Shown piece by piece: positions 8,777-48,310 of a stretch of 64,000 nt of DNA. The DNA comes from Escherichia coli (lineage in GTDB: Bacteria; Pseudomonadota; Gammaproteobacteria; Enterobacterales; Enterobacteriaceae), in assembly GCF_050920415.1 (NCBI RefSeq), contig NZ_CP169309.1. One strand, written 5' to 3'. The position numbers and the translations under genes are program-made. The notes under the pieces are model-generated. The model worked only from the letters and a program-made list of their open reading frames with translations, ran no database searches and was not told the origin of the DNA. The first letter of the stretch is position 1, and every line of letters starts with the position of its first letter.

Positions 8777-8810
8777 AAGATCGTGCAAATTCAATATATT
8801 GCAGGAAGTA

Positions 8811-8841
<31 letters not shown>

Positions 8842-20681: not shown

Positions 20682-20779
20682 GCCTGATGCGCTACGCTTA
20701 TCAGGCCTACACGTATCCTGCAATATATTGAATTTGCAGGTTTTTGTAGGCTGGATAAGGCGTTAAAGCCGCATCCAGT
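20682..20779. repeat. BIME: REP - L motif - inverted REP; contains an unoccupied IS621-type target ATCAGGC-CT-AC at ~20700-20710
   Basis: gcctgatgcgctacgcttatcaggcctac + cctgcaatatattgaatttgcagg + tgtaggctggataaggcg...; same arrangement as the site occupied by the IS at 8814-10094. Confidence 0.75.
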
Positions 20780-32405: not shown

Positions 32406-33638
32406 ATGGCAAAGGTATCGCTGGAGAAAGACAAGATTAAGTTTCTGCTGGTAGAAGGCGTGCACCAAAAGGCGCTTGAAAGCCTTCGTGCAGCGGGTTA
32501 CACCAACATCGAATTTCACAAAGGCGCGCTGGATGATGAACAATTAAAAGAATCCATCCGCGATGCCCACTTCATCGGCCTGCGATCCCGTACCCATCTG
32601 ACTGAAGACGTGATCAACGCCGCAGAAAAACTGGTCGCTATTGGCTGTTTCTGTATCGGAACAAACCAGGTTGATCTGGATGCAGCTGCAAAACGCGGGA
32701 TCCCGGTATTTAACGCACCGTTCTCTAATACGCGCTCTGTTGCGGAGCTGGTAATTGGCGAACTTCTGCTGCTATTGCGCGGCGTACCGGAAGCCAACGC
32801 TAAAGCGCACCGTGGTGTCTGGAACAAGCTGGCAGCTGGCTCTTTTGAAGCGCGCGGCAAAAAGCTGGGTATCATCGGCTATGGTCATATTGGTACACAG
32901 TTGGGCATTCTGGCTGAATCGCTGGGAATGTATGTTTACTTTTATGATATTGAAAACAAACTACCGCTGGGCAACGCCACTCAGGTACAGCATCTTTCTG
33001 ATCTGCTGAATATGAGCGATGTGGTGAGTTTGCATGTGCCAGAGAATCCGTCCACCAAAAATATGATGGGCGCGAAAGAGATTTCGCTAATGAAGCCCGG
33101 CTCGTTGCTGATTAATGCCTCGCGCGGAACGGTGGTGGATATTCCGGCGCTGTGTGACGCGCTGGCGAGCAAACACCTGGCAGGTGCGGCAATCGATGTC
33201 TTTCCGACGGAACCGGCGACCAACAGCGATCCGTTTACTTCGCCGCTTTGCGAGTTCGACAACGTCCTTCTGACGCCACATATTGGCGGTTCGACTCAGG
33301 AAGCACAGGAGAATATCGGCCTGGAAGTTGCGGGTAAATTGATCAAGTATTCTGACAATGGCTCAACGCTCTCTGCGGTGAACTTCCCGGAAGTCTCGCT
33401 GCCACTGCACGGTGGGCGTCGTCTGATGCACATCCACGAAAACCGTCCGGGCGTGCTGACTGCGCTGAACAAAATCTTTGCCGAGCAGGGCGTTAACATC
33501 GCCGCGCAATATCTGCAAACTTCCGCCCAGATGGGTTATGTGGTTATCGATATTGAAGCTGATGAAGACGTTGCCGAAAAAGCGCTGCAGGCAATGAAAG
33601 TTATTCCGGGCACCATTCGCGCCCGTCTGCTGTACTAA
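32406..33638 (+). CDS. serA: D-3-phosphoglycerate dehydrogenase (410 aa)
   Basis: ORF track. Confidence 0.95.
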   Translation: MAKVSLEKDKIKFLLVEGVHQKALESLRAAGYTNIEFHKGALDDEQLKESIRDAHFIGLRSRTHLTEDVINAAEKLVAIGCFCIGTNQVDLDAAAKRGIPVFNAPFSNTRSVAELVIGELLLLLRGVPEANAKAHRGVWNKLAAGSFEARGKKLGIIGYGHIGTQLGILAESLGMYVYFYDIENKLPLGNATQVQHLSDLLNMSDVVSLHVPENPSTKNMMGAKEISLMKPGSLLINASRGTVVDIPALCDALASKHLAGAAIDVFPTEPATNSDPFTSPLCEFDNVLLTPHIGGSTQEAQENIGLEVAGKLIKYSDNGSTLSAVNFPEVSLPLHGGRRLMHIHENRPGVLTALNKIFAEQGVNIAAQYLQTSAQMGYVVIDIEADEDVAEKALQAMKVIPGTIRARLLY

Positions 33639-33690: not shown

Positions 33691-33839
33691 TCCCTTTTCC
33701 CGCGCATGTCACTGCCATTTGTAGTGCGCTGCAATTGCCTTTGCGAGTCTGCTCGAAGAAATAAATTAAAGCCAGATCAATGCGTTGTGCTTATTTAAAG
33801 AGAGTTTACGATGGCAGGGCAGCATGGGGCTGTAACGGT

Positions 33840-33990
33840 AAAGCCCTCACCGAAGCGAGGGCTTGAAGGAGAAGGGTTATGATGCGACTCGTCATCATAC
33901 TGATTGTACTGTTACTCATAAGTTTCCCAGCTTATTAACAGTCAGTCACAGGGGAGGAGCAATCCTCCCTTACCCTTACTCACTAAATTA
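33840..33990 (-). ncRNA. sibC: Sib-type antisense sRNA (antitoxin) overlapping ibsC; ends approximate
   Basis: Established arrangement for Ibs/Sib loci; hairpins flank the ibs ORF on both sides. Confidence 0.45.
33879..33938 (+). CDS. ibsC: type I toxin Ibs, 19-aa hydrophobic peptide
   Basis: Manual translation MMRLVIILIVLLLISFPAY; below ORF-track size cut-off. Confidence 0.65.
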   Translation: MMRLVIILIVLLLISFPAY

Positions 33991-34038
33991 GGTCAAAGAA
34001 TCAACGATGTCAATCAGGGCGATGCAGGTGTGTCGCCC

Positions 34039-34587
34039 TCACCACTCCCAGACTTTCGACGGCGTAACTACTGCAGGAAGTGGAATATCCCACTCTTCAA
34101 CGGGGAGTTTTTCTACCAACTGACAATCATGCGCATAACCCACCGGTTGCATTTGATAGCGCTGCCAGTTTTGTAAGGTCCGATCATAAAAACCACCGCC
34201 CATTCCCAGGCGCTGACCGTACTCATCAAAGGCGACCAGCGGTGTGATCAACACGTCTAATCGGGAAAGGGGTAGCACGTCACGCACATCCAGTTTTGGC
34301 TCATGGATCTTCAACCTGTTCATCACCAGTTCGCTTTGCGGATGGTAATTCAGGAACAGCAAATTACCGGCACTAAAGGGATGCAAAACTGGAAGATATA
34401 CGCGCTTACCGGCGCGCCAGAGTTGTTCTATGAGTGGCTGGGTGTCGAGTTCGCCATCAAAAGAGAGGAATACAGCGACCGTATGCGCCATCACCACCGG
34501 GGGATACGTCATCATCCGGGTAGCAGCTTGTTGACCCATTTCTTGCTGTTGTTTCGGCGTTAACGCACGACGACGTTGCCGAATCAT
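34039..34587 (-). CDS. fau: 5-formyltetrahydrofolate cyclo-ligase (182 aa)
   Basis: ORF 34039-34641 trimmed to ATG giving MIRQRRRALTP; downstream of ssrS in same orientation. Confidence 0.85.
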   Translation of the reverse strand: MIRQRRRALTPKQQQEMGQQAATRMMTYPPVVMAHTVAVFLSFDGELDTQPLIEQLWRAGKRVYLPVLHPFSAGNLLFLNYHPQSELVMNRLKIHEPKLDVRDVLPLSRLDVLITPLVAFDEYGQRLGMGGGFYDRTLQNWQRYQMQPVGYAHDCQLVEKLPVEEWDIPLPAVVTPSKVWEW

Positions 34588-34659
34588 TTTGCGGATTTCT
34601 TGTCGAGATAATGTCAGTGGGATTTCTGGTAGTTGCGTCATGGCTGGTGCCAGATAAGA

Positions 34660-34845
34660 AGGGAATCTCCGAGATGCCGCCGCAGGCTGTAACCCTTGAA
34701 CCCTTGGTTCAAGGTGAATGTGTCGTCACAGTTTTAAGGCTTCTCGGACGGACCGAGCATGCTCACCAACCGCGGAGCGCCACATTCTTGTGGTATGAAA
34801 TATCGGCTCAGGGGACTGGCCCGCTTGCGAACATCTCAGAGAAAT
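34660..34845 (-). ncRNA. ssrS: 6S RNA
   Basis: Reverse complement reads atttctctgagatgttcgcaagcgggccagtcccctgagccgatatttcatacc...ggagattccct, matching my recollection of E. coli 6S RNA. Confidence 0.9.

Positions 34846-48144: not shown

Positions 48145-48310
<166 letters not shown>

What the first reader, a model, noticed from the sequence alone, without database searches (positions are those of the whole stretch)
33840..33990. Type I toxin-antitoxin locus (Ibs peptide / Sib antisense RNA) between serA and fau
A 19-codon ORF encoding MMRLVIILIVLLLISFPAY (Ibs-type membrane toxin) lies in the serA-fau intergenic region flanked by hairpins; Ibs genes are repressed by a fully overlapping antisense Sib RNA. 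Known system, but easily missed by ORF callers; this peptide has Pro where I recall Ser in the K-12 IbsC C-terminus.
Basis: partly seen in the sequence, partly recalled or inferred. Interest (0 to 1): 0.35.

Follow-up and report, generated by a model that had tools for sequence, protein, structure and literature searches.

The report
Known IbsC/SibC toxin-antitoxin locus
This is the well-known E. coli ibsC/sibC pair (a 19-residue membrane toxin silenced by an overlapping antisense RNA) in its usual place between serA and fau. The Pro-for-Ser difference from K-12 is a common natural allele, and it falls on the three bases the antisense RNA uses to recognise its own toxin mRNA.

Summary
The finding is confirmed and the locus is ordinary. 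The 19-codon ORF MMRLVIILIVLLLISFPAY lies at 33879-33938 (+). Rfam SIB_RNA hits the opposite strand at 34013-33863 (140.5 bits, gathering score 56, E 5e-29). serA (32406-33638, +) and fau (34039-34641, -) flank it. A 16-kb stretch is 100% identical to E. coli MFDS1022581, where RefSeq annotates the same ORF as ibsC (WP_071525914.1). Transferring the MG1655 sibC annotation gives a 141-nt SibC RNA at 33977->33837. It covers the whole ORF and the Shine-Dalgarno sequence.

The Pro/Ser difference is real: codon 17 is CCA here and AGC in K-12, differing at all three bases. It is not rare. A CCA probe matches 2,789 of 5,426 complete E. coli genomes, AGC 2,165 and GGA (Gly, O157 type) 1,841. About 1,870 genomes carry a tandem pair in this spacer.

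Codon 17 is the antisense of SibC nt 49-51. Han et al. 2010 mutated this P5-loop triplet to retarget recognition domain TRD1. Across Enterobacteriaceae, codons 4 and 17 (Sib P6 and P5 loops) are the hypervariable ones.

Everything matches the published system, so novelty is "already known" and interest is low.

The parts
33879..33938 (+). ibsC ORF: 19 codons plus TAA, MMRLVIILIVLLLISFPAY
   Evidence: Translation. The identical DNA is annotated ibsC, WP_071525914.1, in NZ_CP169399.1. It matches K-12 IbsC at 18 of 19 residues.
33927..33929 (+). Codon 17, CCA (Pro). Its antisense is SibC U49-G50-G51, in the P5 apical loop (core of TRD1). K-12 has AGC/GCU and O157 has GGA/UCC.
   Evidence: Han 2010 changed G49CU51 to UGC to retarget TRD1.
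33866..33871 (+). Shine-Dalgarno AAGGAG of ibsC, 7 nt upstream of the ATG
   Evidence: Read. It is complementary to the SibC J1/7 segment C107UCCUUC113 (Han 2010).
33819..33977 (+). ibsC mRNA (inferred, 159 nt). The 5' end lies 18 nt beyond the Sib 3' end.
   Evidence: Inferred from Han 2010 (159-nt ibsC mRNA with an 18-nt 5' overhang in the duplex). The window is identical to K-12 over 33805-33889. Fold.
33785..33812 (+). Putative ibsC promoter: -35 TTGTGC (33785-33790), 16-nt spacer, -10 TACGAT (33807-33812)
   Evidence: Read relative to the inferred start site. It falls below the threshold of the consensus scan (one search found none). The -35 differs from K-12 at its last base (TTGTGC vs TTGTGT), the -10 is identical, and the spacer differs at 5 positions.
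33837..33977 (-). SibC antitoxin RNA, 141 nt, fully antisense to the ibsC ORF and RBS
   Evidence: MG1655 b4446 (141 nt) was mapped by its exact 14-nt end matches. Rfam SIB_RNA scores 140.5 bits. The fold gives -54.7 kcal/mol, z = -4.8.
33910..33932 (-). TRD1 (SibC +46 to +68), including the 8-nt P5 apical loop (+48 to +55 = 33930-33923)
   Evidence: Domain limits from Han 2010. The loop is predicted.
33863..33879 (-). TRD2 (SibC +99 to +115). The single-stranded J1/7 core, +107 to +113, is 33871-33865, opposite the SD.
   Evidence: Han 2010. It is unpaired in the predicted fold and identical to K-12.
33837..33864 (-). Sib terminator: hairpin GCCCUCGCUUCGGUGAGGGC (+114 to +137) followed by UUUACC
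   Evidence: Fold. Han 2010 calls this stem the P7 transcription terminator.
33985..34013 (-). SibC promoter: -35 TTGACA (34013-34008), 17-nt spacer, -10 TAATTT (33990-33985), start at A33977
   Evidence: Read (the Rfam model includes this segment). Sigma-S RNA polymerase binds the sibC promoter in K-12 (PMC4447067).
33658..33692 (+). serA intrinsic terminator, the upstream boundary of the spacer
   Evidence: 12-bp stem followed by TTTTTTT.

Best explanation
The region is the chromosomal sibC/ibsC type I toxin-antitoxin locus of E. coli. The plus strand makes a roughly 159-nt mRNA encoding the 19-residue hydrophobic peptide IbsC. In published K-12 work, overproduced IbsC depolarises the inner membrane and stops growth. 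The minus strand makes the 141-nt SibC RNA from a near-consensus promoter. SibC is perfectly complementary to the ORF and the ribosome-binding site.

SibC first contacts the mRNA through two exposed elements. One is the P5 apical loop (TRD1), opposite codons 12-18. The other is the single-stranded J1/7 segment CUCCUUC (TRD2), opposite the Shine-Dalgarno sequence. Pairing then spreads, blocking ribosome binding and exposing the duplex to RNase III, so the toxin is not made while SibC is present.

The window carries the common Pro17 allele. Its only differences from K-12 inside the Sib RNA are nt 49-51 (UGG instead of GCU, in the P5 loop), nt 88 (P6 loop) and nt 30. Toxin and antitoxin are the two strands of one DNA segment, so they change together and stay matched.

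Shown here: the sequence features, family membership of the RNA, orthology, predicted folds and allele distribution. Inferred from published K-12 work: transcription, toxicity, repression and RNase III processing.
For: Rfam SIB_RNA hits full length at 140.5 bits against a gathering score of 56. The ORF and SD are intact. The DNA is 100% identical to a RefSeq genome where the ORF is annotated ibsC. The gene order rpiA-serA-ibsC-fau-ssrS-zapA matches K-12.

The MG1655 sibC ends map exactly onto 33977 and 33837. The window and K-12 SibC fold into the same architecture, with nt 48-55 in an apical loop and nt 107-113 unpaired. TRD2 is identical to K-12.

The mechanism comes from Han 2010 (PMC2943612), the review PMC4147584 (RNase III) and the review PMC8309996 (depolarisation; residues 6-19 needed for toxicity).

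The Pro17 peptide is the same RefSeq protein in Nissle 1917, O145 RM9872 and strain 2017-02-2CC. The CCA probe matches 2,789 of 5,426 genomes.
Against: Nothing in the sequence argues against it. Limits are as follows. No expression, toxicity or repression data exist for this strain. Transcript ends are transferred from K-12, not measured. The ibsC promoter hexamers are weak matches, and the consensus scan found no promoter on either strand. The 19-aa peptide could not be scored against Pfam or NCBIfam because the tool's minimum is 20 residues. Toxicity of the Pro17 form of IbsC itself was not found in the papers I could read, although K-12 IbsE, annotated as a toxic peptide, has Pro at that position.
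Confidence: 0.95

Rival explanations
1. The copy is a decayed, non-functional relic of a Sib/Ibs repeat. The ORF and RNA resemble the family but are no longer expressed or toxic, as happens with several chromosomal hok/sok copies.
For: The promoter scan found no sigma-70 consensus on either strand. The spacer upstream of the ibs promoter (33698-33740) diverges from K-12 and carries a 12-nt indel.
Against: The ORF length, start codon, SD, stop codon, Sib -35 TTGACA with 17-nt spacing, terminator hairpin and TRD2 are all intact, and from 33805 onward nearly identical to the experimentally active K-12 locus. The same peptide is conserved in thousands of genomes. The full-length covariance-model score is far above threshold.
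Confidence: 0.03
2. The Pro17/UGG allele relaxes specificity. SibC of this strain would then also repress, or its ibsC mRNA be repressed by, the other Sib/Ibs copies that carry Pro codons, so the pairs would work as a cross-talking network rather than insulated modules.
For: Pro at residue 17 is shared with IbsB and IbsE of K-12 and with one yqiK-hldE copy of this strain. ibsA is reported to be recognised by non-cognate Sibs (Han 2010).
Against: At the nucleotide level the copies stay distinct. Window SibC shares at most 10 contiguous nt at TRD1 with the strain's two yqiK-hldE copies. At TRD2 it shares at most 13, and that run ends before the J1/7 core. These values resemble K-12 SibC against ibsD (12 and 13), a pair shown not to interact at 37 degrees C. 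The sibA/sibB-type copies of this strain were not located, so this check is incomplete.
Confidence: 0.07
3. Variation at codon 17 is driven by selection on the peptide (different toxin potency or membrane behaviour of Pro, Ser, Gly, Ala, Gln or His), and not by RNA-RNA recognition.
For: The C-terminal residues 6-19 are reported to be needed for IbsC toxicity. All observed residues are small or polar (A, P, Q, H, S, T, G), which suggests some peptide-level constraint.
Against: All three codon positions vary, including the second (1.13 bits). The second position varies by 1 bit or more only at codons 3, 4 and 17, and these map to the apical loops of Sib P6 and P5. The same three nucleotides were shown experimentally to set TRD1 specificity. 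Neither observation excludes a peptide effect.
Confidence: 0.2

Closest known systems
sibC/ibsC of E. coli K-12 MG1655 (b4446/b4665)
   Same: It occupies the same serA-fau position and orientation. The Sib RNA is 141 nt in both, with 136 of 141 nt identical. TRD2, terminator, SD, promoter hexamers and predicted fold match. The peptide is identical at 18 of 19 residues.
   Different: Codon 17 is CCA (Pro) rather than AGC (Ser), which makes Sib nt 49-51 UGG rather than GCU. Leu4 is CTC rather than CTT (Sib G88 rather than A, P6 loop). Sib has U30 rather than A. The spacer upstream of the ibs promoter is divergent and 12 nt longer.
RefSeq IbsC WP_071525914.1 (for example E. coli Nissle 1917, O145 RM9872, MFDS1022581)
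   Same: The peptide is identical. Over the 401-nt spacer and the 16 kb compared, the DNA is 100% identical to MFDS1022581.
   Different: Most carriers have CTT at Leu4. The exact 60-nt ORF with CTC is present in only 3 of 5,426 genomes.
Tandem serA-fau Ibs/Sib pair of O157:H7 and many other E. coli (unit 1 IbsC Gly17, WP_071524576.1; unit 2 'Ibs family toxin')
   Same: It is the same repeat family in the same spacer. From about 33755 onward the window's single copy matches unit 2 at most diagnostic sites: the segment GCTCGAAGAAA, the ibs promoter spacer, the CCA codon and GTCACAGGGG.
   Different: The window has one unit, where about 1,870 genomes have two units roughly 392 nt apart. The window copy is a mosaic of unit 1-like, unit 2-like and private sites.
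SibD/IbsD, SibE/IbsE, SibA/IbsA and SibB/IbsB paralogs
   Same: They share the architecture, the peptide frame MM(K/R)x(V/L)II...SFx(A/T)Y, and a Sib RNA overlapping the whole ORF.
   Different: They have different TRD1 triplets (UGC, CGG, CUG, GGG) and a D/E-type TRD2 (CUUUCCUUAUAC...). They sit at other chromosomal sites, yqiK-hldE and yegL-mdtA.
Other type I toxin-antitoxin systems (hok/sok, ldr/rdl, tisB/istR-1, shoB/ohsC)
   Same: Each has a small hydrophobic membrane toxin whose mRNA is silenced by an antisense RNA.
   Different: In Ibs/Sib the antisense RNA spans the entire ORF and TIR, and it uses two independent recognition domains.

Membership tests
Sib antitoxin RNA (Rfam RF00113 SIB_RNA) | Covariance-model score at or above the curated gathering score | tested here: met
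   140.5 bits against 56, E = 5.4e-29, model positions 1-147 of 147, minus strand 34013-33863.
Sib antitoxin RNA (Rfam RF00113 SIB_RNA) | Encoded antisense to an ibs ORF, overlapping the ORF and its ribosome-binding site completely | tested here: met
   The Sib RNA spans 33977-33837 and the ORF with its SD spans 33866-33938.
Sib antitoxin RNA (Rfam RF00113 SIB_RNA) | RNA of about 140 nt with its own promoter and terminator | tested here: met
   Both K-12 sibC ends are found exactly, giving 141 nt. The promoter is -35 TTGACA, 17 nt, TAATTT. The terminator hairpin is followed by UUUACC. These are sequence features only, and no transcript was observed.
Sib antitoxin RNA (Rfam RF00113 SIB_RNA) | TRD1 in an exposed P5 loop, and TRD2 in single-stranded J1/7 next to the P1 stem and terminator | tested here: met
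   In the predicted MFE and centroid structures, nt 48-55 form the apical loop, nt 1-6 pair with 101-106 (P1), nt 107-113 are unpaired and nt 114-137 form the terminator. K-12 SibC gives the same structure, matching the description in Han 2010. This is prediction, not structure probing.
Sib antitoxin RNA (Rfam RF00113 SIB_RNA) | Represses the cognate ibs mRNA in vivo | not testable with these tools
   This needs co-expression or deletion experiments. It is inferred from K-12.
Ibs type I toxin | Hydrophobic peptide of 18-19 residues with the family frame MM(K/R)..II...SFx(A/T)Y | tested here: met
   MMRLVIILIVLLLISFPAY, compared with the five K-12 Ibs peptides and 36 enterobacterial Ibs ORFs.
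Ibs type I toxin | Match to a curated protein profile (Pfam or NCBIfam Ibs family) | not testable with these tools
   The tools refuse proteins under 20 residues. As a substitute, NCBI's pipeline names the identical sequence IbsC, WP_071525914.1.
Ibs type I toxin | Overexpression depolarises the membrane and stops growth | not testable with these tools
   This is published for K-12 IbsC with Ser17. I found no data for the Pro17 form of IbsC.
sibC/ibsC ortholog (as opposed to another Sib copy) | Located between serA and fau (ygfA), with C-type TRD2 | tested here: met
   The gene order is rpiA-serA-ibsC-fau-ssrS-zapA. TRD2 and the terminator are identical to K-12 SibC and differ from the D/E, A and B types.

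The most novel reading that the evidence does not exclude
The three nucleotides of ibs codon 17 (Sib nt 49-51, P5 kissing loop), and secondarily codons 3-4 (Sib P6 loop), may act as a fast-evolving address label. Selection would act on RNA-RNA recognition rather than on the peptide, keeping duplicated Sib/Ibs modules insulated from each other. Tandem duplication, unequal crossover and gene conversion in the serA-fau spacer would then generate the Pro, Ser and Gly alleles seen among E. coli strains, with the amino acid at residue 17 largely a by-product. Han et al. 2010 already proposed that the TRDs lie in regions that vary among the five K-12 paralogs. The new part would be showing that the same triplet varies between alleles of one locus in the population and across Enterobacteriaceae.
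Probability: 0.45. Interest if true: 0.35.

Novelty: already known. Interest (0 to 1): 0.1.

Why it matters
For annotation, it confirms a real 19-codon gene and an antisense RNA that generic ORF callers skip. Nothing new is needed to explain them. It falls exactly on the experimentally defined specificity triplet of the antitoxin RNA. That triplet, together with codon 4 in the neighbouring Sib loop, is the most variable part of the gene across strains and species. If followed up at population scale, this locus would be a compact natural example of how duplicated antisense-RNA modules diverge to avoid cross-talk.

Tried and rejected
- The ORF listing cannot show the ORF because it is 19 aa and the minimum is 20. 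I read it directly and translated it. My first guess of the start was one base off and was corrected.
- The consensus promoter scan found no promoter on either strand. I located the Sib promoter from the Rfam alignment and the K-12 transcript ends. The ibsC promoter remains putative.
- Fozo 2008 (PMC2597788) and Mok 2010 (PMC3009890, DOI 10.1074/jbc.M110.149179) are not held. What I state from them comes from reviews and from Han 2010.
About 27 of the 65 hits were chance matches in unrelated AT-rich genomes and were filtered out by requiring an Ibs-type ORF.
- My first extraction of tandem loci truncated them at the first repeat end and was redone.
- In one search, identity runs between C-type sequences are artificially broken at a shared alignment gap near nt 110. 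This does not affect the comparisons with the D/E-type copies.
- I did not locate the sibA/sibB-type copies of the window's strain, so the cross-talk check covers only the yqiK-hldE pair.
- I considered and rejected that the window comes from a non-coli Escherichia. The spacer is only about 90% identical to most E. coli, but 16 kb around it is about 98.4% identical to typical E. coli and 100% to one strain. The low spacer identity is local.

Full report
**1. The observation**

- The ORF runs from ATG at 33879 to TAA ending at 33938 and translates to MMRLVIILIVLLLISFPAY (my first attempt was one base out of register).
- A Shine-Dalgarno AAGGAG lies at 33866-33871.
- The generic ORF list does not include the ORF, because it is 19 codons and the tool's floor is 20.
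- The neighbours are a 410-aa ORF at 32406-33638 (+) and a 200-aa ORF at 34039-34641 (-). In an identical RefSeq record these are annotated serA and fau.
Rfam RF00113 SIB_RNA hits the minus strand at 34013-33863 over the full model, at 140.5 bits against a gathering score of 56, E = 5.4e-29.
- The same scan finds 6S RNA (ssrS) just beyond fau. This completes the K-12 gene order rpiA-serA-sibC/ibsC-fau-ssrS-zapA.

**2. Where the window comes from**

- The 401-nt spacer and a 16-kb stretch around it are 100% identical to E. coli strain MFDS1022581 (NZ_CP169399.1). The 16 kb is about 98.4% identical to typical E. coli.
- In that record NCBI's pipeline annotates the ORF as ibsC, protein WP_071525914.1.
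- The same protein accession is annotated in Nissle 1917, O145 RM9872 and strain 2017-02-2CC.

**3. Anatomy**

MG1655 annotates sibC as a 141-nt RNA. Its first and last 14 nt occur exactly in the window, which places SibC at 33977->33837 on the minus strand.
- Upstream lie a consensus -35 TTGACA (34013-34008), a 17-nt spacer and TAATTT (33990-33985). The Rfam model includes this promoter segment.
- The 3' end is a GC-rich hairpin at +114 to +137 (33864-33841) followed by UUUACC.

The predicted fold of the window's SibC is -54.7 kcal/mol with z = -4.8, and no shuffle of 200 folds as well. It has the same architecture as K-12 SibC (-55.3 kcal/mol, z = -5.5):
- P1: nt 1-6 paired with 101-106.
- P2: hairpin.
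- P5: hairpin with an 8-nt apical loop at nt 48-55.
- P6: hairpin at nt 79-100.
- J1/7: an unpaired stretch CUCCUUC at nt 107-113.
- P7: the terminator.

This matches the structure described by Han et al. 2010 (PMC2943612). They defined TRD1 as +46 to +68 (P5 loop, targeting the ORF) and TRD2 as +99 to +115 (J1/7, targeting the translation initiation region). In window coordinates the J1/7 core is 33871-33865, exactly opposite the Shine-Dalgarno sequence.

The ibsC mRNA is inferred to run from 33819 to 33977. Han et al. reported a 159-nt mRNA and an 18-nt 5' overhang in the duplex, and the window is identical to K-12 from 33805 to 33889. Weak promoter hexamers TTGTGC (33785-33790) and TACGAT (33807-33812) sit at the right distance. 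The consensus scan did not call them, so I mark them putative.

**4. Mechanism**

The following comes from published K-12 work, not from tests here.
- Sib RNAs repress the cognate ibs mRNA. Initial contacts at TRD1 and TRD2 spread into flanking sequence, and either domain suffices for repression.
- The duplex blocks ribosome binding and is probably processed by RNase III.
- Overproduced IbsC depolarises the membrane within minutes. Residues 6-19 are needed for toxicity.
- Sigma-S RNA polymerase binds the sibC promoter, with complex temperature-dependent effects, and two SibC transcripts are seen.

The window's locus keeps every sequence element these steps need, so I assign the same mechanism with high confidence.

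**5. The Pro/Ser difference**

K-12 IbsC is ...SFSAY with codon 17 AGC. The window has CCA, so all three bases differ. O157:H7 has GGA (Gly).

Counting along K-12 SibC shows that G49-C50-U51 is the antisense of this codon. Han et al. changed exactly G49CU51 to UGC to make TRD1 recognise ibsD. Both strands change together, so cognate pairing is preserved.

The other differences from K-12 within the Sib RNA are A88 to G (Leu4 CTT to CTC, P6 loop) and A30 to U. TRD2 is unchanged.

**6. How common the allele is**

I used allele-specific 33-mers with the triplet centred, so that any 28-nt megablast seed must span it.

| Triplet (residue 17) | Genomes matched, of 5,426 |
|---|---|
| CCA (Pro) | 2,789 |
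| AGC (Ser, K-12) | 2,165 |
| GGA (Gly, with its own flank) | 1,841 |

- The counts sum to more than 5,426 because about 1,870 genomes have two matching places in this spacer (7,298 places in 5,424 genomes, at most 2 per genome).
- In E2865 and O157:H7 OK1 the spacer holds a tandem pair about 392 nt apart. The order is serA, unit 1 (IbsC Gly17), unit 2 (an 'Ibs family toxin' with Pro17), fau.
- Fozo et al. 2010 already counted seven Ibs genes in O157:H7 Sakai.
- The Rfam SIB consensus at this codon is the Pro form.
- Among 43 distinct Ibs ORFs collected, AGC occurs once.
- The exact 60-nt ORF of the window, with the synonymous CTC at Leu4, is rare and occurs in 3 genomes.

So Pro17 is the commonest allele and K-12's Ser17 is a minority allele with an unusual codon.

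**7. Mosaic structure of the single copy**

I aligned the window with K-12 and with both units of the tandem loci.
- The window matches unit 2 at GCTCGAAGAAA, in the ibs promoter spacer (TTATTTAAAGAGAGTTTACG), at CCA and at GTCACAGGGG.
- It matches unit 1 or K-12 at some other sites.
- It has a private segment at 33698-33740 with a 12-nt length difference.
- Nissle's single copy is unit 1-like upstream and unit 2-like at CCA.

This suggests that single-copy alleles are different unequal-crossover or gene-conversion products of a tandem pair. That is an inference from a handful of sequences, not a demonstrated history.

**8. Insulation from other copies in the same strain**

The strain's yqiK-hldE spacer holds two more Sib/Ibs units (Rfam 149 and 144 bits). 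Their toxins are MMKFVIILIVLLLISFHAY and MMKFVIILIVLLLLSFPTY.
- Their TRD1 triplets are GUG and CGG, and their TRD2 is the D/E type.
- Contiguous complementarity between the window's SibC and these non-cognate mRNAs is at most 10 nt at TRD1.
- At TRD2 it is at most 13 nt, and that run ends before the J1/7 core.
- K-12 SibC against ibsD gives 12 and 13 nt, and that pair does not interact at 37 degrees C.

The Pro allele therefore does not obviously compromise discrimination. I did not locate the strain's sibA/sibB-type copies.

**9. Family-wide variability**

One scan of species-representative genomes, with the flanks fixed and the triplet free, gave 65 loci. Requiring an Ibs-type ORF left enterobacterial hits from Escherichia, Citrobacter, Salmonella, Hafnia, Kluyvera and others.
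- Among 36 distinct 19-codon ORFs, residue 17 is A, P, Q, H, S, T or G, encoded by 12 codons. Codon 4 has 13 codons. The hydrophobic core is much less variable.
- Second-position entropy reaches 1 bit or more only at codons 3, 4 and 17. These correspond to Sib nt 88-93 (P6 loop) and nt 49-51 (P5 loop).
- Caveat: my filters fixed codons 1-2, 5-7, 15-16 and 18-19. The comparison is valid only against codons 3-4, 8-14 and 17.

This agrees with Han et al.'s remark that the TRDs lie in regions that vary among the five K-12 Sib RNAs, and it extends the pattern to alleles and species.

**10. Verdict**

The locus is an already known and already annotated type I toxin-antitoxin pair in its canonical position. 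That is a small extension of published ideas, so interest is low.

Noticed in passing
Other E. coli genomes: L011 (NZ_AP018808.1), L012 (NZ_CP038313.1), L028 (GTDB E. coli representative): The serA-fau spacer varies in copy number. About 1,870 of 5,426 complete genomes carry a tandem Sib/Ibs pair about 392 nt apart (unit 1 Gly17, unit 2 Pro17). The window, K-12 and Nissle have one copy.
   Followed up: partly
window 33698-33740: This segment between the serA terminator and the ibs promoter matches neither K-12 nor either tandem unit, and it carries a 12-nt length difference. The whole 401-nt spacer is at least 99% identical in only 1 genome and 95-99% identical in 67. The single copy looks like a mosaic of unit 1-like, unit 2-like and private sites.
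   Followed up: partly
L013 11075-11630 (NZ_CP169399.1, yqiK-hldE spacer): The window's strain has two more Sib/Ibs units there. One encodes His at residue 17 (MMKFVIILIVLLLISFHAY), which is not among the five K-12 paralogs.
   Followed up: yes
L006 (NZ_CP028192.1, strain CFSAN018748): An IS200/IS605 tnpA lies immediately upstream of the Ibs gene in the serA-fau spacer. That strain's toxin is MMRFFIILIVLLLISFPAY, so the spacer is also an insertion site.
   Followed up: no
window 34662-34845 (-): 6S RNA (ssrS): Rfam RF00013, 138.1 bits, full length. It sits between zapA and fau as in K-12.
   Followed up: no
window 48150-48227 (-), 20703-20745 (-), 8777-8820 (+): Rfam hits to naRNA4 (69.8 bits) and ES036 (47.3 and 39.0 bits). 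By my recollection of these families, not tested here, they correspond to REP-type repeat elements.
   Followed up: no
window 34039-34641 (-): The fau ORF is 200 aa here and in PGAP-annotated genomes, but MG1655 annotates 182 aa (549 nt). The difference is start-codon choice. The fau stop lies only 25 nt from the Sib -35 element.
   Followed up: no
L012 (O157:H7 OK1), units 1 and 2: Within the Sib RNA, the two tandem units differ only at the TRD1 triplet plus one adjacent base, at one base of TRD2 (C113U) and at one base of the 3' tail. Whether the two SibC-type RNAs cross-repress through TRD2 is an open question.
   Followed up: no
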